From: a virus
DNA: 37,393 nt
Reading direction: 5' to 3' (one strand)
UHGV virus genome: UHGV-0149281
The notes under the pieces were generated by a model, which had not been told where the DNA came from, ran no database searches, and worked only from the letters and a program-made list of their open reading frames with translations. Numbering within the stretch: the stretch's first letter is position 1; every line of letters begins with the position of its first letter. Both the position numbers and the translations under genes were made by a program. Below are positions 335 to 37,343 of the stretch, piece by piece.

Positions 335-1124
335 TGTCAGCCTCCTGCTGCGGTGCTGCTGGTGCGGCGGCGAGCATTTTCGAGTAGCAATGCACTGTAT
401 TCAGCCAGAACCCAACCACCGATTGTCCAGCACGCAACATATCTTTTGTTGGGTCAATCGGAACAAGTTTCCATCCATCCGGAATCACCGGAGAGTTGCC
501 AGGCTTCACATATCCACTGTGTGCGTCGGCATCGTATTCAAGAATGTCCGGCTCCTCTGACAATTCACCAATCAAATGGCGCATGCGGTCAGATTCGTAG
601 CGAACGCGGTCAGGATACTCGGAACGCTCGATTGTGATGCCTTCCCATGGGTGCTGGCCTTTTCGATGCAGCATTACGGTCCAGTTTGTTTTGCCGTTCG
701 TTTCAGGCATTGATCCGTACCAGACTGTTAGTTCTGGCTTGCCATCGGCACCCTGAAGCATGGCGGCGCGATAGGCGTTCCAGCCAACAGCTTTTCCGTG
801 TTCAAACGCGCTGTCAAAGTCATCATCCATTTCCATCGCAGCGGGCACAGATACCGGCGCTGGCGTGGCAGAGCGATACAGAAGAACATCACCCATCTCT
901 GCTCTGGACGCAGGCCATACGTCTGCATCAGAGCCAGATTTGAGATAATCAAGATTGGACTGGTCGATTACGCACACAGCCTCCGCTTCGAGCGATGCCA
1001 GCGCGATACGCAGGGCAGCCAGCGTATTACTGTCGTCTTCATCCAGGCCGAACGGGATTTCATCGCGGGTGGCTTCCATGTCGGCAATTTTCTGCTGTAG
1101 CCATTGTTTGGTAAGTGTGCTCAT
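327..1124 (-). CDS. hypothetical early-left (pL operon) protein, 265 aa
   Basis: Long ORF, acidic; ATGA overlap with the upstream gene (1121-1124), co-directional with the erf operon. Confidence 0.6.
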   Translation of the reverse strand: MSTLTKQWLQQKIADMEATRDEIPFGLDEDDSNTLAALRIALASLEAEAVCVIDQSNLDYLKSGSDADVWPASRAEMGDVLLYRSATPAPVSVPAAMEMDDDFDSAFEHGKAVGWNAYRAAMLQGADGKPELTVWYGSMPETNGKTNWTVMLHRKGQHPWEGITIERSEYPDRVRYESDRMRHLIGELSEEPDILEYDADAHSGYVKPGNSPVIPDGWKLVPIDPTKDMLRAGQSVVGFWLNTVHCYSKMLAAAPAAPQQEADNG

Positions 1125-1910
1125 GATGCCTCTCCTTTACCGGCTGCGGCGCGGTCGATTCGTTCAATTTCGGCCAGAATAAGTGCGCCAGCTTTCACAA
1201 GGTCACGACGCGGATTTGTCGGCTTCCACCATTCTGGTGTCCACGGCCAGCCAAATGGAATGCGGTTAAATGGATGGATGGCATTCAGTACGTAGCATGA
1301 GGATGCCCACAGTAACTGCGATTTGCTGTACTGGTCATCATGCTCAGGCGTCCATCCCTCAGCTGATTGATGGCGTTGACGCTCTGCAATTACTGACTGA
1401 ACGGCATTGGATAGCGATTTCACACCCTGCGCACGCACTTCAGCCAGGAAAGCGTCGGTGGCTGGGGTTTTGTTATCTGACTCCAGCCACTGGTTGTAGT
1501 AATAATCGAACATGCCAGTAGGATAACCACATCCGCCGTGCACGTGGTCTTTCATAGCAGAACCACACATGCAGTAGTCATTGTCAGTATTACTAATGAT
1601 GTCGATAAGTTGCTGTGTCCGTTGCTTCAACATCGCATTCTCCGCCGCCAGCGCCGAAAACTTCTCGTGTGCCAACTTAACAGCTGCATCAGCCTGCTTA
1701 ATTGACTCAGTCGCTTTCTGGTGGTCTTCGGCCAGCCCTGCTAAATCAGCCTCCAGTTCGGCTAGGCGTTCATTTAATGCATCTCGTTCATCCAGTAGAG
1801 CCAGCACAACCTGAGGTGTGACTTTCATACGAAATGCCAGCAATTTTTGAGGTGTTGCTACTGTTTCAATTGCTACTGCTGCCTCACGCAGTACCTGATA
1901 GTCAATCTTG
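1121..1910 (-). CDS. hypothetical protein with N-terminal coiled coil and Cys/His-rich C-terminal region
   Basis: ORF open from 1936; likely GTG start at 1910 preceded by AAGGAGG; heptad-like N-terminal region; CMCGS..HVHGGCG motif. Confidence 0.55.
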
Positions 1911-1911
1911 C

Positions 1912-2112
1912 TCACTGGTTGCCTCCTTTGCGCCACATCGCATTCAGATATTTGTTGTCATTAACAGAACCGAAACTCTTTCTCTTAAGCAATTCCTCTC
2001 TCGATGGCATTGGCTTTACGCGTTGGCGAATAATCATTTCTGCCGGAAGAATGCCGGGATTGTATGCAAGTCCTCTCATGGTAAATTCCTCAGTCATTAC
2101 TGATAGCGCCAT
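1912..2112 (-). CDS. small hypothetical protein (66 aa)
   Basis: ORF overlapping the 3' end of the upstream gene by 23 nt; no strong RBS seen. Confidence 0.3.
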
Positions 2113-2386
2113 AGCGTGAGCGGTAATTACGCAGGCGCGGGTCGATATATTCAGGGAATTTGTCTATTGTCGCTTTTCGCAACGGTCGCATTGCTGTTTC
2201 GTTTGTTCGGTCCCTCTCATCTTTTAACGCGAGCTGTATATCGCGTCGGTACATCCGTTCTGCTTTTGTTTCTGGTGGCAGAGCAAGAAACGCGTCGAAA
2301 ATGTTTTTGATATTTTCCAGCACCTCCGACTTGGAGCTACCGGAGCAGTTGCGCGCGTCGTCCGCACCATACAGAGGCGCTGGCAT
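2090..2386 (-). CDS. small early protein, possible Abc2-like anti-RecBCD protein
   Basis: 98-aa ORF immediately distal to erf in the pL operon, the size and position of P22 abc2; assignment is by synteny, not sequence. Confidence 0.55.
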
Positions 2387-2409
2387 AATGGAATCCTTAT
2401 GTTGCTACT

Positions 2410-2793
2410 TTAGAAGGGAATTGAATCGTCGTATTCAGGATGATTTTGATGATTGCTACTTTGCTGCTGTTGGCTGTTTCCTGAGGTTGCAAATCCAATC
2501 TTTGCATTCAGTAATTCAAGAGTGATTGATTGACCATTTTGCCCCTGATAAACATCAACCCTGATGTTTTCTCCGGTAATTTCTACAATGCCACCTTCAA
2601 CAAGAACACTACGGTAGTAATCCGCTTGCGCTCCCGGCTTGGCAAATACAACGGCGCTGTAGTTTGTCCATTCTTTCTTTTTTGTCTGGCGATCGTAATA
2701 CTGAACGCCAGCACGGATGTTGAATCCGATATTTTCCCCGGCCTGAAACTCTCTTGCGGGCTTGTTTAGTCTTACAGTAATCGAATGTGCCAT
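2410..2793 (-). CDS. SSB-like protein with acidic C-terminal tail
   Basis: Start ATG at 2793 overlaps the erf stop (TAATG); C-terminus ...HPEYDDSIPF resembles the SSB DDDIPF tail; preceded by a Gln/Ser-rich linker. Confidence 0.65.
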   Translation of the reverse strand: MAHSITVRLNKPAREFQAGENIGFNIRAGVQYYDRQTKKKEWTNYSAVVFAKPGAQADYYRSVLVEGGIVEITGENIRVDVYQGQNGQSITLELLNAKIGFATSGNSQQQQSSNHQNHPEYDDSIPF

Positions 2794-3398
2794 TAAGCAG
2801 CCGCTCCTTCTAATTCGTCTCGTCTGATGTTGTAAACGTCCTGCGCTTTGTGCTGCTCCGGTGTGCCTTCGAGCATCTTCCACGCTTTGGCGAACGCCTG
2901 TTTAAGCTCTTCTACGGTGTTTTTCTGCATTGCTGCGTCAGTGAATGCTTTTAGAACCTGTTCAGGTGTAGGTGATGGTTTTGATTGCTTTGCTGCTGCG
3001 TTCTGCTGATGTTTATGCTCGTCTGTATCTGCATCTTTCGCATCATCAATGCCGAACAAACCATTGAGGCAATACTTGCGCGCATAAGAACTTGTAGCTC
3101 CAGTAACTTGTGCAGAATCCATTCCTTTCTTGCTTTCTTCCTCTCGTGCAAGAGCGGTTGCCGTATGACTGTTTTCGCCATCGGTAATAGTTGCCGTAGC
3201 TTTCACGTAATACCGATCACCAATCAACACAACTTCATCGCTGATTGATAAAAACAGGCCATTCAGTAACGGCTTAACGCCTTCAAGAATGTCTTCGCAG
3301 CTTCTGTATTTATATTTGCCGAATGAGTTGTACTGATTCTTTGGCGCGTTCAGATTCTCCTGAATAGCTGCCAGTCTTGCGTAAAATTCTTTGCTCAT
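2793..3398 (-). CDS. erf: Erf-family single-strand annealing recombinase
   Basis: MSKEFYARLA...NAPKNQYNSFGKYKYRSCEDILEGVKPLL matches remembered P22 Erf nearly residue for residue over the N-terminal domain. Confidence 0.9.
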   Translation of the reverse strand: MSKEFYARLAAIQENLNAPKNQYNSFGKYKYRSCEDILEGVKPLLNGLFLSISDEVVLIGDRYYVKATATITDGENSHTATALAREEESKKGMDSAQVTGATSSYARKYCLNGLFGIDDAKDADTDEHKHQQNAAAKQSKPSPTPEQVLKAFTDAAMQKNTVEELKQAFAKAWKMLEGTPEQHKAQDVYNIRRDELEGAAA

Positions 3399-3499
3399 AT
3401 GATTGTTCTCAGAATGGACACGGCCCAAGGAAATAACGCTGATTTAATACTTCGACTCGTGACAAATTAAGGCATACCCGCATTCCTTCGCGGTCGCCA

Positions 3500-3658
3500 T
3501 TATGGCGATACCAGAGAGCTTTCTGCGTGTACATGCGTCTCTGTAACTTGCTCTCCTTCACTGTGGTTGCAAGTGACATGAATATCTCCTTCGTTACCGA
3601 TTAAATCTTTCATCTGACGAATGAATTCTTCGTCTGACCAGTTATCTGTAAAACTCAT
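3500..3658 (-). CDS. small early protein (kil/arf position)
   Basis: 52-aa ORF from ATG 3658, overlapping the cIII stop by ATGA; position between cIII and erf. Confidence 0.4.
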   Translation of the reverse strand: MSFTDNWSDEEFIRQMKDLIGNEGDIHVTCNHSEGEQVTETHVHAESSLVSP

Positions 3659-3825
3659 GGGCGGCCTTGTTGTTTCAAAATATCCCAAAGCTTTTCGAGC
3701 AAGCTTTTCATTCTTGGTTGTTTAAAGTCTGCTCCGGTTAAAATATTTTTTCGTGAATGCTGTACCGATAAAATCGGGTTGAAAGGGCGAACCGATGCCG
3801 CCCCTGCAATAGCGAACTGTTGCAT
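3655..3825 (-). CDS. cIII: cIII-like protein (protease inhibitor that stabilises cII)
   Basis: 56 aa; MQQFAIAG...SLLEKLWDILKQQGRP parallels lambda CIII (MQYAIAG...); RBS AGGAG 6 nt upstream of the ATG. Confidence 0.8.
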   Translation of the reverse strand: MQQFAIAGAASVRPFNPILSVQHSRKNILTGADFKQPRMKSLLEKLWDILKQQGRP

Positions 3826-4495: not shown

Positions 4496-4541
4496 GTTAG
4501 CCTCTGTTGTTTATGCCAAAAATAAAGGCCGACTATGCGGC

Positions 4542-5012
4542 CTAGTAGAATACCCAATTTTCTGTTTCTTGGTTGTGTCCAAAGTTATATTCAATATCTG
4601 GTGTTGATGTATCAATATTCTTCATCCCATCAACAAGAGTTGATACAACAGCCAAATCTTGTTTGATTCTCATTAAATGGTATTTCTTCCGGCGCAATAA
4701 ACTTTCAATGGCAAGTTTCTTCGTTGGGAATGCAAAAGATCTTTCTGCATTTTTTGCTACTTTCTTAATTGCATATCTATTTCTCTTTTGTTTCCATTCC
4801 TGTAACCACTGATTTGGTGCTGGTTTAAAATTAACAATCCAATGCGCAGGAACCAACCATGCATAATGCTCTGTCTGATGAAAAGCTATATATTGAAGTG
4901 CGAATATTTTGATTCCATCTTCTTCAACTGTCGCCTGGAATCTCCAGAAAACAGGCATTCCATCATGTTCAGTTTCTGATTCAGGAAAAGGTACGCTCCA
5001 TGATTTTGTCAT
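4542..5012 (-). CDS. hypothetical protein (156 aa), AT-rich, directly downstream of N
   Basis: ORF in markedly AT-rich DNA; sits where lambda/P22 carry ral/sieB/gene 17; no recognisable motif. Confidence 0.55.
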   Translation of the reverse strand: MTKSWSVPFPESETEHDGMPVFWRFQATVEEDGIKIFALQYIAFHQTEHYAWLVPAHWIVNFKPAPNQWLQEWKQKRNRYAIKKVAKNAERSFAFPTKKLAIESLLRRKKYHLMRIKQDLAVVSTLVDGMKNIDTSTPDIEYNFGHNQETENWVFY

Positions 5013-15709: not shown

Positions 15710-16169
15710 TCAACGTAAGGCGTTCCTCGATATGCTGGCGTGGTCGGAGGGAACTGATAACGGACGGCAGAAAACCAGAAATCATGGTTATGACGTCATT
15801 GTAGGCGGAGAGCTATTCACTGATTACTCTGATCACCCTCGCAAACTTGTCACGCTAAACCCAAAACTCAAATCAACAGCCGCCGGGCGTTACCAGCTTC
15901 TTTCCCGTTGGTGGGATGCCTATCGTAAGCAGCTTGGCCTGAAAGACTTCTCTCCGAAAAGCCAGGACGCTGTGGCACTGCAACAGATTAAAGAGCGTGG
16001 CGCTTTACCGATGATTGACCGCGGTGATATTCGTCAGGCTATCGACCGTTGCAGCAATATCTGGGCTTCACTTCCGGGGGCTGGTTATGGTCAGTTCGAG
16101 CATAAGGCTGACAGCCTGATTGCAAAATTCAAAGAAGCTGGCGGAACGGTCAGAGAGATTGAGGTATGA
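15693..16169 (+). CDS. R: endolysin R (lytic transglycosylase)
   Basis: [51 protein letters not shown] matches lambda R. Confidence 0.95.
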
Positions 16170-16603
16170 GCAGAGTAACCGCGATTATCTCCGCTCTGGT
16201 TATCTGCATCATCGTCTGCCTGTCGTGGGCGGTCAATCATTACCGGGATAACGCCATGACCTACAAAGAGCAGCGCGATAAGGCCGCATCCACAGTCGCT
16301 GACATGCAGAAGCGTCAACGTGATGTAGCAGAACTCGACGCCAGATACACAAAGGAGCTTGCTGATGCTAACGCGACTATCGAAAGTCTCCGTGCTGATG
16401 TTTCTGCTGGTCGTAAGCGCCTGCAAGTCGCCGCCACCTGTGCAAAGTCAACGACCGGAGCCAGCAGCATGGGCGATGGAGAAAGCCCAAGACTTACAGC
16501 AGATGCTGAACTCAATTATTACCGTCTCCGAAGTGGAATCGACAAGATAACCGCGCAGGTTAACTACCTGCAGGAGTACATCAGGACGCAATGCCTTCGA
16601 TGA
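16166..16603 (+). CDS. Rz: i-spanin Rz
   Basis: N-terminal TM ([30 protein letters not shown]) matches lambda Rz; the central region diverges (mosaic). Confidence 0.9.
16365..16550 (+). CDS. Rz1: o-spanin Rz1 lipoprotein embedded in Rz (+1 frame)
   Basis: Lipobox LLVVSAC followed by a proline-rich segment; AAGGAG RBS; entirely inside Rz. Confidence 0.8.
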
Positions 16604-29491: not shown

Positions 29492-30871
29492 ATGGCTACG
29501 TGGCAACAGGGTATTAATTCTGGTGGTTTTCTGGCTGGCATCGGTACGCAAAATGAGAATGCGCCAAAGGCAAGCGACATTAACGCAACGCTTGGTCTGA
29601 TCCGCGAAAACAATGAACTGGCTCGCTCAGGTGCAAATAACGTTGGTCTGACCGCGTTACGTGGTCTGGCTGGAGTTGCTGATATTTACAATCAGGAACA
29701 GCAACAGAAAGCTATTAGTGCGTTCAATAAGGTTCACGCTGATGCATGGGCTTCTGGTGATCCATCGGGACTATTTAAGTTTGCCCAGGAAAATCCAGCG
29801 TTTGTTGCACAGGCACAACAGGCGTTTTCCGGTCTTAATGAGCAGCAACGCAACGATATGGGCGATTTAGCCATGAGGGCTAACGTCGCTCTTTCTCAGG
29901 GACCGGAAGCCTACAGTAAATTCATTACTGACAACAAGGACAGGTTAAATCGCGTGGGGGCGAATGCTGACTGGATGATTCAGACAGGTATCCAGAATCC
30001 AGAGCAGCTATCACACATGCTGACTACTATGTCTCTCGGTGCGCTTGGACCAGAAAAGGCGTTTGCTGTTCAGGATAAGATGGCTGGTCGTGAAATTGAC
30101 CGAGGCAGGCTGGCAGAGACAATCCGCAGCAATCAGGCTGGCGAGGCGCTAACAGCGCGTGGTCAGAATATCACGATGCGCGGTCAGGATTTATCGATGC
30201 AGAGAGCATCAATGAAAGGGTCGGTTGGGAATAATGAGCGTACAGTTCAGTTAGCAGATGGCAGAACTGTAACGGTAGGCGGGAAGCTTCACGGCGCTGG
30301 GGCTAATGCGTTCTACGAAGGTATCGACAACGAGGGGAATATGGTTCGCGTTCCTGCTGGCTCTATTGCCGCTCCGGCTACATCGGCAGCAAGCGCGCAG
30401 AATTACGCAATGAAGAAAGATCTTGATGCAATTTCTGGTGCATCAATTGACGATCTTGGCTTCATGACTGGCATTACAGGCTCTTCAGGTTCTCCTGCTC
30501 TTGGTGCAGATATTCGTAGCCGTGCATCTGGTGGTGATCAGAGGAAACTATACAACGCTGCACAGCGAATCCAAGGAAAGATGCAGAATCAGGGCATTGC
30601 AGCAGCCAGAGACATGGGGGCATCCGGTATCAACACCGTTGCAGAAGCAAAGCTGTATTTTCAAGGTATGCCACAGGTTGATTTCTCAAGCCCTGAAGCA
30701 CTGCAACAATCAATGCGCGACATTCAGCAATATACCGACAATTACAACCAACAATATAACGTTAATGTCGGTAATGGAGGGAAGAAATCATCAATGCAAC
30801 AGCCGCCTACTCAGCAATCAGCAGGAGGTAGCTACACGTCAAAATCAGGCATTCAATTTACGGTGGAATGA
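29492..30871 (+). CDS. ejection protein (P22 gp20-like)
   Basis: 459 aa ORF at the syntenic position; start overlaps the gp16 gene end. Confidence 0.85.
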
Positions 30872-32997
30872 TGAAAGTAACTGCAAACGGTAAGACATTT
30901 ACCTTTCCTGATGGTACGAGCACCGAAGATATTGGCACCGCCATTGATGAGTATTTTGCTGGTCAGGCTGTTCAGCAACAAACAGTTAATCAGGCCAATA
31001 ATGCACCAACACGGGAAGAACCATCATTGATGCAACAAGCTGGCGATTGGCTCACTGGTGGTCAAAGTGCAGGGCAAATTGCAGAACAGGCTGGTCGTGG
31101 TCTGGTAAACATACCATTTGACGTATTGCAGGGTGGCGCAAGTCTGATTAATGCAATCAGTCAGGGGCTTGGTGGCCCCAAGGTTTTGGATGATGTCTAT
31201 CGCCCTGTCGATCGACCGACAGACCCTTACGCGCAAGCCGGTGAAACAATTGGTGGGTATCTCCTGCCAATTGGCACAGCAGCAAAAGCTGCTGGAGCGC
31301 CAGCAAAGCTCGCAGGAGACATCGGTTCCGCAGGAAACATGATTGCCGGTTCTCTTGCTGATGCTGCAAATCAGGAGGGTGATTTTGCACAAAATGCTGC
31401 CATTAACGGTGGTATCAATATTGGTGCTCAAAGCGTTCTTTCAGGTGTCGGGCGCGTTATTGCGCCAAGAGTTTCACAGGCTCTTGGTGGTGCAGCACTG
31501 AATTCTGCTAATGATGTTTCCAGGATGGCAAAGTCAGGTGCTGGGCGTCAGTCAATTGCCAGTCAGGCCGCTAATGTGTCCGAAGATGTAGCAAAAGCGG
31601 CTGAGTCTGCTGGAATTGATATAAACGCATTAACACCAGGAATGCGATCTGGAAGTCGTGGAATTGCACAAGCCGAAGGCGCATTGGCATCAACACCAGG
31701 AATTGTTCAGGACGCCCATCAGGCAGCATTTAACGAAATATCATCAAAGTTAAGTCGAAACCTTGATGAATTTGGGGCCGCATCTGGAACGGCATCAGAA
31801 AAAAGTGCGGCTATAAAACAAAGGATTCTTCAAAATCTTGATCAGATGAAGGATGCCGAGCGCGCGGCATGGGATGACGTGCGGTCAACAATGCCAAATC
31901 AAAAAGCAAGAATGCTAAATGGTAATGCCGTTATTCAGGCAGAGCGATCTGCTGGCATACCGCTTACTCCTGAAATGAAACAGTTTGTTCAGGCAAACAA
32001 TCAAGGTGGAGTAACATTTGATGGCATGAAAGCATGGAGAGCGAAATTTGCTGATGCGGAGCAAAAATATAAGCGTGGCGGAGAGGCAAATGCGGCAAGG
32101 AGAGCAGGGGAAATACGCCGGGCAATTACTGATGATATGCGCACAATGGCGGAAAACGGCGGATTTCTTGATGACTGGCAGAAAGCTAATGATCTGTCTA
32201 AAGCGAGGTTATCAGCACAAGAGAGTGCAGAGTCTGTTTTCGGGCGTGATTTGGCAACAGATGCACTGATTACGAATGGAGTAAAATCCCTTCAATCATC
32301 GTCAGCTAAAGGTCTTAATGGTCCTGCTGGGTTCCATTCTATGATCCGCGCGCTGCCAGAATCAGAGCGTGTTCCTGCTATATCATCAATGTTGCAAGAT
32401 GCTATCTCGCATGGTGTACGTGGTGGCAAAGCTGATGCAGCAGGAATTAACCATATCGCAGGGATACTTACCCCACAAAATGTAAAAGCCATTAGCAGGT
32501 ATTCCTCAGAACTTGGAAGAATTGCTGATGCATATGGCACTCTTGCAAGAGCAGCAGTGAAACCTCAGCAGTATATTGAAAGAACAGGGAGAACTGCCAA
32601 TGTACTACGCGATCTGGATGCCGGTTTATCCAACGTCACATCAACAGTGTTAAATGCAATTGCCAACTCAACATCAGGTGCAATTGTTGGTGGAGCAGGA
32701 GGAGGGGGTATTGCAGGCGCTGCCGCAGGTGCTTTAGTTGGCGCCGGGTTAAAAGGTGCTGTATCTAAAATTGCCACCACGCGTAGCGGTCGATATGCGA
32801 TAGAGAAAGCAGTTCAGGAAGCCACGAAAGCAGTAAGAGCTGGCGGAAGTAAAGAAGCATTAGCGGCGGCGGAACGCAGATTTATGGCAAATAAAGCCGC
32901 CGTAAAAGCAATACGTGATGCAGTTGGAAACGAAGAGTTCAATCGCTTAGCGAGGGCTGGCATTGTAGCGTCGCTAAGCGGAATAGCACAGGAGTAA
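30868..32997 (+). CDS. ejection protein (P22 gp16-like)
   Basis: 709 aa, Ala/Gly-rich; last gene of the ejection-protein block before the ImmI region. Confidence 0.85.
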
Positions 32998-33321
32998 TTA
33001 ATCATCCATGGATGGATTGAGCTTATCTCGTGTTGATGTGGCGATTTGTCCTACATTCCTAAGCCAAGATTTCAAATCCTTGATATTGTCATTGATTTCA
33101 TGAATATCTTCTTTTTTTAGTCTGTTAATATTATTCTCAATAATTTCAATGGATTGCTCAATATCAGATATAGTGAATGATAGTTTGTTCTTCTCATCTT
33201 TTATTGAGTTTTTAAGTGCTTCGTTCTCAGTCTTGAGGTCAGATATCTTTTGTTTTAAAGATGCCAGTTGGTACTGAACCACAATGAGTGCGATAGCTAT
33301 CACGATAACTGTTGTATACAC
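32998..33321 (-). CDS. small membrane-anchored coiled-coil protein (sieA-locus replacement)
   Basis: GTG start with strong AAGGAGG RBS; N-terminal TM (YTTVIVIAIALIVV) then a heptad coiled coil; very AT-rich. Confidence 0.65.
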   Translation of the reverse strand: MYTTVIVIAIALIVVQYQLASLKQKISDLKTENEALKNSIKDEKNKLSFTISDIEQSIEIIENNINRLKKEDIHEINDNIKDLKSWLRNVGQIATSTRDKLNPSMDD

Positions 33322-33439
33322 ACCAACCTCCTTAGTTTTGAGCAGGATACCATGAAAAAAGTAAACATCTTTTGCCTACTTCACATTTGAATGGTTTGTC
33401 ATTAGGATGTTTCCGGTTTTTTCAAATATGGAAATTGAT

Positions 33440-33859
33440 ATGAAGAGGATTATCGGCGTTGTTGCTGGCGCTATATTGTTATCTGGGTGCGCAACTATTG
33501 TTGGTGACGAAACACAGCTCGTGCAAGTGAACAGCAATCCTTCCGGTGCGAGCTTTAAAGTAAAAGACGAATCAGGCGTGATTGTTGCGCAAGGCAAGAC
33601 CCCGCAAGGAGTAACTCTTGCCAAGTCAGATGGTAGTTATTTTGGCAAAAAGAGCTACCAGATCACTATGGAAAAGGATGGGTACGAACCAGTTACCCTG
33701 CCAATCAAAGCCAATGCTAATGGTTGGTATATTGGTGGAAACCTTGTGTTTGGTGGGTTAATTGGTTGGCTTGCTGTAGATCCTTTTAATGGCGGGATGT
33801 ATACCTTGAAGCCAAAAGAGGCAAACGCATCTCTTATACCATCAACAAAGCAAGACTAA
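33440..33859 (+). CDS. lipoprotein of unknown function
   Basis: Signal peptide with lipobox LLSGC; Gly-rich C-terminal segment GGNLVFGGLIGWLAVDPFNGGMY; own terminator. Confidence 0.75.
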   Translation: MKRIIGVVAGAILLSGCATIVGDETQLVQVNSNPSGASFKVKDESGVIVAQGKTPQGVTLAKSDGSYFGKKSYQITMEKDGYEPVTLPIKANANGWYIGGNLVFGGLIGWLAVDPFNGGMYTLKPKEANASLIPSTKQD

Positions 33860-33867
33860 TAAATAGG

Positions 33868-33890
33868 ACCCACCTTCAGGTGGGTTTTTT
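33868..33890 (+). terminator. rho-independent terminator
   Basis: CCCACC-TTCA-GGTGGG followed by TTTTTT; overlaps the mnt 3' end. Confidence 0.7.
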
Positions 33891-34127
33891 GTACAAATCC
33901 TTCAGCGTATCAAACACCATCTTCTTAACAAGCTCTGACTGCTCATCAGCGAGTCGTTCTGCATCGTCGCGATATCCAGTCACAGGCGATGGTTTTGATA
34001 GAGCATCTTGGACGATTTGTAACAACTCGGAGTTCATTGATCTCCCATTCGCCTCCGCCCTGAATTTTAATTTCTCCCTTACTTCCATAGGCATACGGAA
34101 GTTAAAGTGCGGATCATCTCTAGCCAT
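33876..34127 (-). CDS. mnt: Mnt repressor (ribbon-helix-helix)
   Basis: MARDDPHFNFRMPMEVREKLKFRAEANGRSMNSELLQIVQDAL matches P22 Mnt. Confidence 0.95.
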   Translation of the reverse strand: MARDDPHFNFRMPMEVREKLKFRAEANGRSMNSELLQIVQDALSKPSPVTGYRDDAERLADEQSELVKKMVFDTLKDLYKKPT

Positions 34128-34218
34128 GCCATCACTCCAAGTTAGTGTATTGACATGATAGAAGCACTCTACTATATTCTCAATAGGTCCACGGTGGACC
34201 TATATTGTGAGGTGAATA
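34128..34218. promoter_or_regulatory. Omnt/Oarc operators with divergent Pmnt/Pant promoters
   Basis: Arc operator-like ATGATAGAAGCACTCTACTAT and Mnt operator palindrome AGGTCCACGGTGGACCT between mnt and arc. Confidence 0.8.
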
Positions 34219-34450: not shown

Positions 34451-35326
34451 AAAAGTATAGCAAAGGCACAAAACGATTTCACCATCTTCAAATTCGGCGA
34501 CAGTGAAATCCGCGTCATCAACAAATGCGGTGAGCCGTGGTTTGTAGCAAAAGATGTTTGTGATGCTTTAACCCTGACTAACTCACGCAAGGCGCTTACT
34601 GCACTTGATGACGATGAAAAGGGAGTAACTTTAAGTTACACCCTTGGTGGTGAGCAGAATCTAAGCATTGTTAGCGAATCAGGTATGTATACATTGGTTC
34701 TGCGCTGCCGCGATGCTGTCAATAAAGGTTCGGTCCCGCACAAATTCCGCAAGTGGGTAACAGCAGAAGTTCTGCCTTCAATTCGCAAACATGGCGAGTA
34801 TGTGAAAGGCAAGAAAACCACTGTTGAGGAAAGAACACCGCTACGCGATGCAGTAAACATGCTGGTAGGAAAGAAAGGACTTCGCTATGACGATGCATAC
34901 AGTATGGTTCATCAGCGTTTTGGTATTGACAGCATTGATGAACTTTCAATTGAACAAATCCCGCTGGCCGTAGAGTACATCCACAGGGTAGTGCTTGAAG
35001 GTGAATTCATCGGAAAACAAGAGAAGAAAACCAACGAGCTTTCTGCAAAAGAAGCAAACAGCCTTGTATGGCTCTGGGATTATGCTAACCGTTCACAGGC
35101 ATTATTCCGCGAACTGTATCCGGCATTAAAACAAATTCAATCGAACTATTCCGGCAGATGCTACGACTACGGTCATGAATTCTCGTATGTTATCGGAATG
35201 GCGAGAGACGTTTTAATCAATCACACACGAGATGTTGATATCAATGAGCCAGACGGACCAACGAATCTTTCCGCATGGATGAGACTTAAGAATAAAGAAT
35301 TGCCTCCTTCAGTACATAACTACTGA
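34448..35326 (+). CDS. ant: antirepressor Ant
   Basis: 292 aa; N-terminal KilA-N/Bro-N-like region; sequence parallels P22 Ant; follows arc. Confidence 0.9.
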
Positions 35327-35345
35327 CAGATAACCAACGCAACGA

Positions 35346-35368
35346 CCCAGCTTCGGCTGGGTTTTTTT
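35346..35368 (+). terminator. rho-independent terminator after ant
   Basis: CCCAGC-TTCG-GCTGGG followed by TTTTTTT. Confidence 0.75.
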
Positions 35369-35426
35369 ATGCCCAAAATTCACCGTAGCCATGCTGCGGC
35401 GATTCCTTGTATCTGGAGCAAATTAA

Positions 35427-37343
35427 ATGACAGACATTACAGCCAATGTTGTGGTAAGCATGCCTTCGCAACTCTTCACTATGGCTCGTTCTTTTAAAGC
35501 CGTTGCCAATGGCAAAATTTATATCGGTAAAATTGACACTGACCCGGTAAATCCTGAAAACCAGATTCAGGTTTATGTAGAGAATGAAGACGGCTCTCAC
35601 GTTCCTGTTTCGCAACCAATCATCATTAACGCTGCTGGTTACCCGGTATATAACGGACAGATTGCCAAGTTCGTAACTGTGCAGAATCATTCCATGACTG
35701 TGTATGATGCTTATGGTTCGCAGCAGTTCTATTTTCCGAATGTGTTGAAGTATGACCCTGATCAACTTTCTTCGCGCTTATCATCTGATGATGGTGCTTC
35801 TTATATTTCATTTAAGAAGCCTTATGCTGATGCTGCAACCAGAAAAGCATCTGACTACTTTAATCAGGAAATTAATGTAGATGACTTTGGTGCGTATGGC
35901 GATGCCTACTTATTGAACGGAGAAGATAACCCAAGCAAGCATGACGACACACACGCATTTCAGGCCGCTCTGATTGCTGCGTGGCGTGCAGGTGGTGTTA
36001 AAGTAGTAGCCACTCCGTGGAAAAGCTATTACATCGCTGGTAAAGTTTATGTGTTGGCTTCGGAATCCCTATCCGACATTGAAGCAACTAATTTCCCTAA
36101 GCGTCGGATGCAAGTGATAGATTTTCAGGGCGCTCGTATCGTTGGGCGGGACGACACTTCCGACACAACTAATGTGTTCATGGAAACAGGTTACATAAGT
36201 TCTACTGGCTCTATAGCTTCTGTATTTGGGAAATCTGGGGAAGAATACTTAGCCACAGGAACCACCATTCGTAACGCAACCTTGGTTAACTTCTATCAGG
36301 GGTTCCGTTTACGTGACCATGTATTTGGTTGTGAGGTTACAGATATTGTTGGAGTAAACGTCCAGCAGTTAGTTTACACTCAGCGATGTTTCTACTCACT
36401 GTTCCGTAACCTGCAATGTAACGGCACATATACTACCGGCCTGCATCGCTATCACTTCACTGATGAATGCAACATTCAACCTCTGGTTTCTGTCAACACA
36501 GGACAGTGTGATGTAGGTATTAAGTTTGAAGGTGCGGTTGAAGCTCTTACGCTGTTCAACTGCGGCATTGAAAGTTTTCGCACCCACGGCGTTTGGATTG
36601 CAGGAGCATACAACATCAAGTTCGATTCATGCTACATAGAGTCAAACGAAAGCAATGTATACGGTGTTATAGCTACGAGCGCAAATAACATTACGCTGGA
36701 TAACTGCTGGATTTACGGTAGCAGTATGAAAATGTTTGGTGCATTCGACGACAATACCAACGTAAGAATTATGCCTAATAACCGTATTGGAGGAGGGGCG
36801 GTTTGGTGGGATCTTAACGAAGGGTCGCCGTACAACCTTTCCGATATTCACTGGCAAACAGATATAAAGGCAGGTGGTGTAACACTTCCTGCGGCATCCG
36901 CTAAAGAAGCCAGCACGGTGGAACAGACGATAGTTTTCTACCATCCAGATTTTGGCTTGAGTTCAATCGTAGGAAAAGCAAAACAAACGAGTAAATACCA
37001 CCCGCAGCTTGTTAACGGCAAAATGAGTAACGGTAGCTCTGCTGCACATACAGTTGGCGCAAGTGTCTCTACAGAGGTTTCAGGTTCAGACACTAGAGCA
37101 AAATGGACAACGCAAATACAATACTCTGATACACAGCTTATTTTTTTAGCATTGAAGATAGATCATAACTTAGGGACATGGTTTTGGTTAGGTGTTGTGG
37201 CAGGAGATAAAGCGATGGTTATTTCAACATCTGATGAATCAAAGACTCCGGTTATAAGTAATGAAAATGGGTTTGTCGTAGTAGAGAGTCCGCTTCTTAT
37301 GACGCCAATAAATGTTCATGGTGGAGAAATAAGATTGCTATAG
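35427..37343 (+). CDS. tailspike: P22 gp9-like head-binding domain fused to a divergent beta-helix receptor-binding domain
   Basis: First ~115 aa ([11 protein letters not shown]...[34 protein letters not shown]...NVLKYDPDQ) match the P22 tailspike; the remainder diverges with beta-helix-like repeats; 3' end AT-rich. Confidence 0.85.

What the first reader, a model, noticed from the sequence alone, without database searches (positions are those of the whole stretch)
32998..33859. Divergent membrane protein / lipoprotein pair at the P22 sieA position
Between gp16 and mnt, where P22 carries sieA, there is a minus-strand 107-aa protein (N-terminal TM, heptad coiled coil, strong AAGGAGG RBS, GTG start, very AT-rich) and a plus-strand 139-aa lipoprotein (lipobox LLSGC, Gly-rich C-terminal segment) with its own terminator. 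The two are divergently arranged, so each needs its own promoter, and either could be lysogen-expressed. Envelope-located products are typical of superinfection-exclusion or receptor-masking functions.
Basis: partly seen in the sequence, partly recalled or inferred. Interest (0 to 1): 0.65.

Follow-up and report, generated by a model that had tools for sequence, protein, structure and literature searches.

The report
Two independent prophage envelope-protein morons
Between the DNA-injection genes and the mnt repressor, this P22-like E. coli prophage carries two real but unrelated accessory genes, a small membrane-anchored helical protein (HkcB) and a mobile outer-membrane lipoprotein that published RNA-seq shows is switched on in lysogens, and neither has a proven function.

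Summary
Window 32998-33321 (-) encodes a 107-aa protein with an N-terminal TM helix and a long helix. Window 33440-33859 (+) encodes a 139-aa lipoprotein (lipobox LSGC). They are 118 bp apart and divergent, in the slot where P22 has sieA.

Both were already annotated as hypothetical genes 14 (hkcB homologue) and 15 of Salmonella phage epsilon34 (97% DNA identity). Both evolve under purifying selection.

They are not a functional pair. In 5426 complete E. coli genomes, hkcB occurs in 72, the lipoprotein gene in 123, and both together in 10.

HkcB is confined to P22-like prophages. It always abuts one lineage of ejection-protein gene 16 and is unrelated to SieA.

The lipoprotein is a promoter-ORF-terminator cassette from a very large Gram-negative family (PEGA-like beta-sandwich plus an invariant Gly-rich motif). 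The cassette also sits in the tail modules of lambdoid prophages. Its amino-acid-identical copy in prophage Gally of E. coli LF82 is transcribed at near-repressor levels in culture medium and in macrophages, while virion genes stay silent.

Superinfection exclusion is plausible, more so for HkcB, but untested. For the lipoprotein, a general host-condition-induced envelope role fits slightly better. A spanin reading is rejected.

Verdict: ordinary morons with some useful new context. Interest is moderate to low.

The parts
30868..32997 (+). Gene 16 homologue (ejection / DNA-transfer protein, 709 aa), HK620/CUS-3/epsilon34 lineage. Its stop codon abuts the hkcB stop codon with 0 nt between them.
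   Evidence: ORF. Annotated as ejection protein in epsilon34, CUS-3, HK620 and SEN22. 61-92% identity among all seven hkcB-bearing loci, against 23-38% to the gp16 of loci without hkcB.
32998..33321 (-). hkcB homologue (epsilon34 gene 14). 107 aa, GTG start. N-terminal TM helix (about residues 2-20), one long helix to residue 101, and a conserved tail W(L/V)(K/R)NVGxIAxSTRDK(L/I)NPSxD(D/N).
   Evidence: (PHROG 5962, E 1e-58, unknown function).
33327..33333 (-). Shine-Dalgarno AAGGAGG of hkcB, 5 nt upstream of the GTG.
   Evidence: Read from the sequence. Conserved in epsilon34, SEN22 and HK620; AAGGGGG in CUS-3.
33344..33352 (-). Candidate extended -10 element TGgTATCCT for hkcB. This is inferred, not shown.
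   Evidence: The block TCATGGTATCCTGC is conserved in the four phages where hkcB is divergently transcribed, and absent in CUS-3 where hkcB is the last gene of a minus-strand operon. The consensus scan found no full -35/-10 promoter on this strand.
33352..33390 (+). 12-codon remnant (MKKVNIFCLLHI*) of the 5' end of hkcC, the gene that is divergent from hkcB in HK620. It marks where the lipoprotein cassette replaced hkcC.
33380..33408 (+). Predicted sigma70 promoter of the lipoprotein gene: -35 TTCACA, 17-nt spacer, -10 TAGGAT.
   Evidence: 9 of 12 matches. Both hexamers and the spacing are kept in Gally and 720R6 (TTCACG-17-TAAGAT) although the surrounding sequence differs. TAGGATGTTTCCG(A/G)TTTTTT also travels with the gene into a siphophage tail module (L019). 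The Gally copy is transcribed in lysogens.
33440..33859 (+). Lipoprotein gene (epsilon34 gene 15). 139 aa. Signal peptide residues 1-16, lipobox LSG|C17, Ala at +2, PEGA/transthyretin-like beta-sandwich (about residues 25-95 plus 121-131), and an invariant Gly-rich motif NGWYxxGNxxFGGLIGWLxVDPxxGxM (residues 94-120).
   Evidence: (PHROG 6823, E 6e-86, unknown function).
33866..33891 (.). Bidirectional rho-independent terminator that ends both the lipoprotein gene and mnt.
   Evidence: Annotated in epsilon34. P22 homology begins at its stem.
33876..34127 (-). mnt repressor gene (context; right border of the variable slot).
   Evidence: Pfam Arc (E 4e-30) plus Repressor_Mnt (E 7e-19). Pant/Pmnt-like divergent promoters at 34150-34183.

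Best explanation
The interval contains two independent accessory genes ('morons') in the hypervariable 'ant moron' between gene 16 and the tailspike gene of a P22-like (Lederbergvirus) E. coli prophage. They do not work as a pair.

(1) The lipoprotein gene
- It is a self-contained promoter-ORF-terminator cassette captured from a very widespread Gram-negative lipoprotein family.
- After signal peptidase II cleavage at Cys17, and with Ala at +2, the protein should be sorted by Lol to the inner leaflet of the outer membrane (inferred).
- It would present a PEGA-like beta-sandwich in the periplasm. Its invariant Gly-rich hydrophobic segment would mediate membrane association or oligomerisation (inferred).
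- It is expressed from the prophage independently of lytic genes and is strongly up-regulated in host-like conditions. This is shown for the amino-acid-identical Gally copy.
- My commitment: it is a lysogenic-conversion factor that changes a general property of the envelope, in the way Bor does, rather than masking one phage receptor (about 0.45). Exclusion of incoming phages remains possible (about 0.3).

(2) hkcB
- It encodes a bitopic inner-membrane protein, a TM anchor plus an ~80-residue helical stalk, in exactly the place of sieA.
- It is physically locked to one lineage of the inner-membrane ejection protein gp16.

The overall confidence given (0.6) is for the framework: two real, independent, prophage-borne envelope-protein morons, with the lipoprotein expressed in the lysogen. 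The specific mechanisms carry the lower probabilities stated above.
For: Identity and status as real genes
- 97% DNA identity to epsilon34 genes 14 and 15.
- Purifying selection on both.
- Conserved length and conserved motifs.

Independence of the two genes
- hkcB occurs without the lipoprotein gene in CUS-3, HK620 and SEN22. The lipoprotein gene occurs without hkcB in Gally, 720R6 and CFSAN004176.
- Counts in 5426 E. coli genomes are 72, 123 and 10.
- A Salmonella locus pairs a 60%-identical HkcB with a nearly identical (1 aa difference) lipoprotein.

Moron nature of the lipoprotein gene
- The same family is inserted between gpT and the tape-measure gene (E. coli), before the tape-measure gene (Proteus), and between gpI and gpJ (Pseudescherichia). 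Each copy has its own hairpin terminator.
- Chromosomal copies with no phage context also exist.
- The family has 3682 representative clusters. Among 80 GTDB species it spans several proteobacterial classes, Desulfobacterota and Bacteroidota, with no conserved neighbour.

Expression (PMC9928086 S1 Table; values are log2(fpkm+5), two replicates each)
- GALLYPH_14: 6.2/4.8 in LB, 9.8-10.5 in bacteria-only medium samples, 11.0 in macrophages at 1 h.
- C2 repressor: 8.9-12.0.
- Virion genes: about 3-4.
- Bor in the same strain shows the same pattern.

HkcB
- Same slot and strand as sieA.
- Zero-nucleotide junction with gene 16 in all seven loci examined, all of one gp16 lineage.
- AT-rich.
- Antisense to late transcription, so it is best expressed outside lytic growth (inferred).
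- The slot repeatedly holds small envelope proteins in other prophages.
Against: - No phenotype has been measured for either gene.
- There is no transcript evidence for hkcB, and the scan finds no consensus promoter for it.
- HkcB topology is unresolved. There is no positive charge before the TM helix, and Lys23/Lys25 follow it (Glu3 precedes the TM in HK620). By the positive-inside rule this favours N-out/C-in. A cytoplasmic stalk would rule out a periplasmic block of the conduit.
- The linkage of hkcB to one gp16 lineage may reflect only zero-distance physical linkage in seven related loci.
- The Gally authors scored the locus as 'no moron', because in LB the two genes were 3.3x and 4.5x above background, below their 5x cutoff.
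- The Gly-rich motif is modelled with low confidence, pLDDT 53-66.
- Outer-membrane sorting is inferred only from the +2 rule.
Confidence: 0.6

Rival explanations
1. The lipoprotein is a dedicated superinfection-exclusion or receptor-blocking lipoprotein working like Cor or Llp. From the inner leaflet of the outer membrane it binds an outer-membrane protein, or blocks the trans-envelope channel, and so stops DNA delivery by incoming phages.
For: - It is a prophage-expressed envelope lipoprotein.
- In every phage context it sits beside injection or tail genes: gp16, tape-measure, gpJ. Cor and Llp sit in comparable positions by established knowledge.
- In P22-like phages it sits next to the sieA slot.
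Against: - No homology to Cor, Llp, TraT or Bor. The PHROG Cor hit (E 0.003) covers only the 20-residue signal peptide, and PADLOC gives nothing.
- The family is mainly cellular and very widespread, at more than 50% identity across bacterial classes.
- It is carried by podophages and siphophages that use different receptors.
- Its expression responds to conditions rather than running constitutively with the repressor.
Confidence: 0.3
2. HkcB is not an exclusion protein. It is an N-out/C-in membrane-tethered cytoplasmic coiled coil with another role, for example abortive infection, modulation of a host membrane complex, or control of the phage's own development.
For: - The charge distribution around the TM helix favours a cytoplasmic C-terminal domain.
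- Only generic coiled-coil matches appear in Pfam, NCBIfam, PADLOC and PDB.
- In CUS-3 it is the last gene of a minus-strand operon starting at mnt, which is consistent with a regulatory or lysogeny-linked role.
Against: - Its position and strand are identical to sieA.
- It is strictly associated with one gp16 lineage.
- SieA's own conserved motif is predicted to be cytoplasmic (PMC10883804), so a cytoplasmic domain does not exclude a block of DNA entry.
Confidence: 0.3
3. The two genes form one two-component envelope system, for example a spanin-like pair (TM/coiled-coil i-spanin plus lipoprotein o-spanin) or another complex spanning the periplasm.
For: - The architectures superficially resemble Rz (TM plus coiled coil) and an outer-membrane lipoprotein.
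- There are weak PHROG hits of HkcB to Rz-like spanins, E 0.001-0.002.
- The genes are adjacent.
Against: - The genes are inherited independently: 10 co-occurrences against 72 and 123 single occurrences.
- They are divergently transcribed and lie outside the lysis cassette.
- The window has a canonical Rz/Rz1 at 16166-16600 and 16365-16544.
- The lipoprotein is a 139-aa beta-sandwich of cellular origin, not a short o-spanin.
- The lipoprotein is expressed in lysogens.
Confidence: 0.03
4. One or both ORFs are decaying or non-functional passengers.
For: - The region is in rapid flux (PMC2629481).
- An hkcC remnant lies between the two genes.
- No function is known for either gene.
Against: - dN/dS of 0.25-0.32 for hkcB, and 0 nonsynonymous against 7% synonymous differences for the lipoprotein gene.
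- Conserved length, conserved motifs and a strong ribosome-binding site.
- High transcription of the Gally copy.
Confidence: 0.03

Closest known systems
Salmonella phage epsilon34 genes 14 and 15; HK620/CUS-3 hkcB
   Same: Same genes. 97% DNA identity over 32900-33950, with identical order and orientation. HkcB is 98% identical to CUS-3 HkcB and 50% to HK620 HkcB.
   Different: The window is an E. coli prophage, 99.8% identical to strain 162.2 in this interval. Elsewhere it is a mosaic relative to epsilon34 and has a different tailspike body. Those genes were only ever annotated as hypothetical (PMC2629481).
P22 SieA (inner-membrane superinfection-exclusion protein, types A-C)
   Same: HkcB has the same genomic slot, the same strand and the same convergent position after gene 16. 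Both are small inner-membrane proteins. SieA targets the gp16/gp20 conduit (PMC10883804).
   Different: No sequence similarity. HkcB has one TM helix and a long helix where SieA has several TM helices. The FxRYPxEAxxFNK motif is absent. No exclusion phenotype has been tested.
Lambda Bor (prophage-expressed outer-membrane lipoprotein moron)
   Same: Both are small lipoproteins encoded by a moron inside the late region and expressed in the lysogen. In LF82 the Bor gene of prophage Perceval and GALLYPH_14 share the same profile: low in LB, high in medium and in macrophages.
   Different: No homology: no Lambda_Bor Pfam hit. The fold and size differ. Serum resistance has not been tested.
Cor (phi80/HK022/N15/T1) and Llp (T5) exclusion lipoproteins
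   Same: Phage-encoded outer-membrane lipoproteins located next to tail or receptor-binding genes.
   Different: The only similarity is the signal peptide (PHROG 1119, residues 1-20, E 0.003). The present family is mainly cellular and occurs in phages with unrelated receptors.
PEGA domain (PF08308) / transthyretin-like, carboxypeptidase-regulatory-like beta-sandwiches
   Different: This protein scores 17.6 bits, below the gathering score of 20.8. The invariant C-terminal Gly-rich motif is not part of PEGA. The domain name carries no function.
Rz/Rz1 two-component spanins
   Same: A TM plus coiled-coil protein next to a lipoprotein.
   Different: Independent inheritance, divergent transcription, a location outside the lysis cassette, and a canonical Rz/Rz1 elsewhere in the window.

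Membership tests
SieA (P22-type superinfection exclusion protein) | Sequence homology to SieA types A, B or C, including the motif FxRYPxEAxxFNK | tested here: not met
   BLASTP of HkcB against P22 SieA gives only an 18-residue match at E 0.047. The motif is absent from the HkcB sequence. The motif definition comes from PMC10883804.
SieA (P22-type superinfection exclusion protein) | Multi-pass inner-membrane protein of about 160-200 aa | tested here: not met
   HkcB is 107 aa with a single N-terminal hydrophobic stretch and one continuous helix.
SieA (P22-type superinfection exclusion protein) | Gene lies between the gene 16 and gene 9 homologues of a P22-like prophage, on the strand opposite the late operon | tested here: met
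SieA (P22-type superinfection exclusion protein) | Blocks DNA injection by P22-like phages | not testable with these tools
   Needs plating and potassium-efflux or DNA-entry assays.
Bacterial lipoprotein (Lgt/LspA/Lnt substrate) | N-terminal signal peptide ending in a lipobox [LVI][ASTVI][GAS]C | tested here: met
   MKRIIGVVAGAILLSG|C. Cys17 is invariant and Ala18 nearly invariant in alignments A3 and A4.
Bacterial lipoprotein (Lgt/LspA/Lnt substrate) | Acylation and outer-membrane sorting (no Asp at +2) | not testable with these tools
   Position +2 is Ala, so Lol export is inferred from the +2 rule. Confirmation needs globomycin or palmitate labelling and membrane fractionation.
Moron (independently expressed insert in a phage operon) | Present or absent between conserved flanking genes in related phages | tested here: met
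   Both genes are variably present between gene 16 and mnt. The lipoprotein gene is also inserted at three different sites in siphophage tail modules.
Moron (independently expressed insert in a phage operon) | Own promoter and terminator | tested here: inconclusive
   Lipoprotein gene: a conserved -35/-10 pair and a hairpin terminator in every context, but no mapped transcription start. hkcB: only a candidate extended -10, and no consensus promoter is found.
Moron (independently expressed insert in a phage operon) | Transcribed from the repressed prophage | tested here: met
   For the lipoprotein only, through its amino-acid-identical copy GALLYPH_14 in published RNA-seq (PMC9928086 S1 Table). 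No data were found for hkcB.
PEGA domain PF08308 | Score at or above Pfam's gathering threshold | tested here: inconclusive
   17.6 bits against a cutoff of 20.8 for this protein. 14 of 48 family members match at E <= 0.01. The fold is compatible.
Cor / Llp / Bor / TraT phage or plasmid lipoproteins | Sequence homology beyond the signal peptide | tested here: not met
   The PHROG Cor match covers residues 1-20 only. There are no Pfam hits to the Lambda_Bor or TraT families at E <= 0.1, and no named viral structural match.
Two-component spanin (Rz/Rz1) | Co-oriented, adjacent or embedded genes in the lysis cassette, inherited together | tested here: not met
   The genes are divergent, lie 17 kb from the lysis cassette, and co-occur in only 10 genomes against 72 and 123. 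A canonical Rz/Rz1 is present at 16166-16600.
FtsB/DivIC/FtsL bitopic division proteins | Profile-level homology | tested here: not met
   Pfam DivIC scores 21.5 bits, below the 28.9 cutoff.

The most novel reading that the evidence does not exclude
HkcB is a non-homologous functional replacement of SieA. In this reading it is a single-pass coiled-coil inner-membrane protein that blocks DNA delivery specifically through the HK620/CUS-3/epsilon34 lineage of the gp16 conduit, which would explain its strict zero-distance linkage to that gp16 lineage. The lipoprotein would be a horizontally mobile outer-membrane factor, induced in host-like conditions, that acts broadly: it would either protect against both podophage and siphophage DNA delivery or raise bacterial survival in macrophages. 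Together they would define two new families of prophage-encoded envelope defence or conversion proteins.
Probability: 0.2. Interest if true: 0.6.

Novelty: new member of a known kind. Interest (0 to 1): 0.35.

Why it matters
The sieA slot of P22-like prophages emerges as a hotspot that repeatedly collects small envelope proteins. Found here were SieA, HkcB, a second TM/coiled-coil protein, and at least three unrelated lipoproteins.

If HkcB excludes phages through the gp16 conduit, it gives a second, simpler handle on how podophage ejection proteins cross the inner membrane.

The lipoprotein cassette is common: 123 of 5426 complete E. coli genomes, plus lambdoid prophages of E. coli, Proteus and other genera. 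It is one of the most highly transcribed Gally genes inside macrophages in the Crohn's-associated strain LF82. That prophage was reported as moron-free, so the gene is an overlooked candidate lysogenic-conversion factor.

Its parent family, thousands of clusters across Gram-negative bacteria, has no known function. A phenotype found in the phage setting would annotate all of them.

Tried and rejected
- Homology of either protein to known defence or exclusion proteins. Pfam, PHROGs, NCBIfam and PADLOC gave only unknown-function PHROGs, coiled-coil noise, a sub-threshold PEGA hit and a signal-peptide-only Cor hit.
- HkcB as an FtsB/DivIC mimic. This was prompted by a position-matched QYxL in the TM helix and a weak DivIC hit. 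hhalign gives probability 0.9%, so it is rejected.
- HkcB profile against the PDB. Only designed or natural coiled coils came back.
- The Gally 171-aa protein in the sieA slot as a SieA homologue. There is no alignment; it is another lipoprotein.
- Guilt by association. In 80 species-representative loci no neighbour is conserved beyond lineage-specific synteny. The first attempt, with the distant alignment, failed for lack of a conserved stretch.
- Spanin-pair reading: rejected.
- Literature. No paper mentions the protein accessions. hkcB appears only in the epsilon34 genome paper. A CRISPRi gut screen of LF82 reports nothing for GALLYPH_13 or GALLYPH_14 in its main text.
- A single continuous heptad register in HkcB: not significant.
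- A PhoP-box-like element upstream of the lipoprotein gene was looked for by eye. The spacing does not fit, and it was not pursued.
Full report
**What is there**

The window is a P22-like (Lederbergvirus) prophage. The interval 32900-33950 is 97% identical to Salmonella phage epsilon34 and 99.8% identical to a prophage of E. coli strain 162.2.

Gene order:
- gene 16 homologue, 30868-32997 (+)
- a 107-aa ORF, 32998-33321 (-)
- a 118-bp spacer
- a 139-aa ORF, 33440-33859 (+)
- a hairpin terminator, 33866-33891
- mnt, 33876-34127 (-)
- arc, ant and the tailspike gene

The two ORFs are epsilon34 genes 14 (an hkcB homologue) and 15. The 2008 genome paper lists them as genes of unknown function in the rapidly changing 'ant moron' (PMC2629481).

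**Are they real genes?**

Yes, both.

HkcB:
- It starts with GTG, with AAGGAGG 5 nt upstream.
- The gene has 33% GC, against 47.6% for the window.
- Only 21 clusters of homologues exist among 5.8 billion proteins. All but one truncated homologue are exactly 107 aa, down to 53% identity.
- The TM helix has invariant Gln16/Gln18, and the C-terminal tail W(L/V)(K/R)NVGxIAxSTRDK(L/I)NPSxD(D/N) is conserved.
- dN/dS against diverged copies is about 0.25-0.32.
- AlphaFold predicts one helix from residue 2 to 101.
- Heptads are clear locally but shift register.

Lipoprotein:
- It has a canonical lipobox (LSG|C17, Ala at +2), with the Cys invariant in 48 distant and 74 close homologues.
- Compared with the Gally copy it has no amino-acid change but 7% synonymous differences.
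- The model is a confident beta-sandwich, pLDDT 85-96 over residues 21-90. The Gly-rich motif NGWYxxGNxxFGGLIGWLxVDPxxGxM is modelled with low confidence.

**They are not a pair**

- hkcB occurs without the lipoprotein gene in CUS-3, HK620 and SEN22.
- The lipoprotein gene occurs next to a different minus-strand gene in three cases. In Gally and 720R6 that gene is a 161-aa lipoprotein with lipobox LLAGC. In E. coli CFSAN004176 it is a different 109-aa TM/coiled-coil protein.
- Among 5426 complete E. coli genomes, hkcB is present in 72, the lipoprotein gene in 123, and the full arrangement in 10.
- A Salmonella locus combines a 60%-identical HkcB with a nearly identical (1 aa difference) lipoprotein.
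- A 12-codon remnant of hkcC, the gene divergent from hkcB in HK620, survives at 33352-33390. It shows that the lipoprotein cassette replaced hkcC.
- A spanin-like reading (TM/coiled coil plus lipoprotein) fails on this distribution, on the divergent orientation, and because the window has a canonical Rz/Rz1 at 16166-16600.

**The lipoprotein cassette**

Distribution of the family:
- 728 hits in the 90%-identity protein collection and 3682 representative clusters in the exhaustive search.
- At more than 50% identity it reaches Pasteurellaceae, Halomonadaceae, Beta- and Zeta-proteobacteria, Desulfobacterota and Bacteroidota.
- No neighbour is conserved across 80 species-representative loci.

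Contexts within Enterobacterales:
- Plain chromosomal contexts in Enterobacter, Leclercia and Kosakonia.
- A typical moron inside the tail modules of unrelated siphophage prophages: between gpT and the tape-measure gene in E. coli (68% identity, more than 400 contigs), before the tape-measure gene in Proteus, and between gpI and gpJ in Pseudescherichia.
- Each of these copies has its own hairpin terminator. One also has the same TAGGATGTTTCCG(A/G)TTTTTT leader as the window.

Promoter: in P22-like phages the predicted promoter is TTCACA-17-TAGGAT at 33380-33408. Both hexamers are retained in Gally and 720R6 although the sequence around them differs.

Published RNA-seq settles the question of lysogen expression for this gene. 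In E. coli LF82, GALLYPH_14 encodes a protein with the same amino-acid sequence as the one here. The log2(fpkm+5) values, two replicates each, are (PMC9928086 S1 Table):

| Gene | LB overnight | Bacteria-only, 1 h and 6 h | Macrophages 1 h | Macrophages 6 h |
|---|---|---|---|---|
| GALLYPH_14 | 6.2 / 4.8 | 9.8-10.5 | 11.0 / 11.0 | 9.4 / 9.5 |
| C2 repressor | 8.9-9.9 | 10.5-11.0 | 12.0 | 11.2-11.3 |
| Virion genes | about 3-4 | about 3-4 | about 3-4 | about 3-4 |

- The neighbouring minus-strand lipoprotein gene GALLYPH_13 is also expressed, at 6-10.3.
- The authors called Gally 'devoid of morons' only because their criterion was five-fold over background in LB. These genes were 3.3x and 4.5x above background.
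- The Bor lipoprotein gene of prophage Perceval shows the same condition profile in the same strain.
- That the B1/B6 samples were grown in macrophage culture medium is my reading of the paper's discussion.

**What the lipoprotein probably does**

- It falls in PHROG 6823, of unknown function.
- Its PEGA score is below threshold, although 14 of 48 relatives match PEGA.
- The Cor hit covers only the signal peptide.

From the +2 rule I infer an outer-membrane, periplasm-facing lipoprotein. I infer that its Gly-rich hydrophobic segment mediates membrane association or oligomerisation.

Three facts shape my preference. The family is ancient and cellular. The cassette rides on phages with different receptors and tail types. 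Its transcription responds to host-like conditions in the way Bor's does. I therefore favour a general envelope-conversion role (about 0.45) over a receptor-specific exclusion role (about 0.3). Its constant placement beside injection or tail genes keeps the exclusion reading alive.

**What HkcB probably does**

HkcB has no homology to SieA and is not an FtsB-like protein. Every other match is coiled-coil noise.

Two facts are informative.
- It sits in exactly the sieA position and on the sieA strand.
- In all seven loci examined (window, epsilon34, CUS-3, SEN22, HK620, a Leclercia prophage and a Salmonella prophage) its stop codon abuts the stop codon of gene 16. That gene 16 always belongs to one lineage, 61-92% identical with a conserved C-terminus. 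Loci with other gp16 types (23-38% identical) carry other genes in the slot.

SieA acts on the gp16/gp20 conduit (PMC10883804). I therefore commit to HkcB being a non-homologous analogue that interferes with DNA delivery through this gp16 lineage. The confidence is only about 0.35, for these reasons:
- The linkage may be purely physical.
- No transcript data exist.
- The promoter is only a candidate extended -10 (TGgTATCCT at 33352->33344). It is conserved where hkcB is divergently transcribed and absent in CUS-3, where hkcB ends an operon that starts at mnt.
- The charge distribution, with no positive residue before the TM helix and Lys23/Lys25 after it, suggests the helical stalk may be cytoplasmic.

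**Comparison with what is known, and novelty**

Both genes were already catalogued as hypothetical. The kind of element, a moron encoding a small envelope protein in a temperate phage, is well known.

What this analysis adds:
- The two genes are independent.
- The lipoprotein cassette moves between podophage and siphophage structural modules.
- Existing data show it to be an overlooked, strongly condition-induced lysogen transcript.
- hkcB is strictly tied to one gp16 lineage.
- The sieA slot emerges as a collector of small envelope proteins.

No function is demonstrated for either gene. I rate the finding 'new member of a known kind', with interest 0.35.

Noticed in passing
window 33352-33390 (+); L013 (HK620) 3459-3824: A 12-codon ORF (MKKVNIFCLLHI*) is the remnant of the 5' end of hkcC. 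The intact HK620 HkcC (121 aa) contains an HExxH motif (HECAH), which suggests a small metallopeptidase-like protein.
   Followed up: partly
L022 (E. coli CFSAN004176) 3175-3504 (-): A different 109-aa protein with an N-terminal TM helix and a coiled coil occupies the sieA slot behind a P22-type gene 16. It uses the same 5' leader and Shine-Dalgarno sequence as hkcB, and the lipoprotein gene lies next to it.
   Followed up: partly
L003 (Gally) 2425-2940 (-); L015 (720R6) 2419-2904 (-): In Gally and 720R6 the sieA slot holds another lipoprotein (MKKSLLIIPLLLAGC..., PHROG 6067, unknown function). It is also transcribed in LF82 lysogens and is induced about 16-fold in macrophages at 1 h compared with LB (PMC9928086 S1 Table).
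   Followed up: partly
L030 (Leclercia sp. W17 prophage) 4514-4918: A 53%-identical hkcB is divergently paired with yet another small putative lipoprotein (134 aa, ...LLLTTGGC...). It is a third unrelated lipoprotein in this hotspot.
   Followed up: no
L002 (CUS-3) 939-3098 versus L013 (HK620) 930-3098: My global alignment gives 77.6% identity between the annotated gp16 proteins of CUS-3 and HK620. The text of PMC10883804 states 26%. The discrepancy is unresolved. It bears on that paper's argument that gp16 explains HK620's partial resistance to SieA.
   Followed up: no
L004-L008 (E. coli lambdoid prophages, e.g. ED1a CU928162.2): The prophages that carry the 68%-identical lipoprotein between gpT and the tape-measure gene also carry a porin (Porin_1) moron between tail genes M and L. 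They also have an Arc/Arc/antirepressor (immI-like) module, with a ClpP-like protease gene, inside the tail region.
   Followed up: no
window 34150-34183: Near-consensus divergent promoters (TTGACA-17-TATATT on the + strand, TTGAGA-17-TATCAT on the - strand) match Pant and Pmnt. With mnt, arc and ant, they indicate an intact immI region.
   Followed up: partly
window 34967-37343: Only the head-binding N-terminus of the tailspike matches epsilon34 (homology ends near 35755). The receptor-binding body is different, in line with an E. coli host and a different O-antigen specificity. Overall the window is a mosaic relative to epsilon34 (79-97% identity in blocks).
   Followed up: partly
L034-L113: The lipoprotein family keeps more than 50% identity from Enterobacterales to Bacteroidota, Desulfobacterota and Zetaproteobacteria. 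That is unusually high for a 139-aa protein of unknown function and suggests either strong constraint or frequent horizontal transfer. Many distant members carry a C-terminal extension of about 30-40 residues ending in ...(V/L)LL.D(V/L)P......L.(R/P)(V/I).
   Followed up: partly
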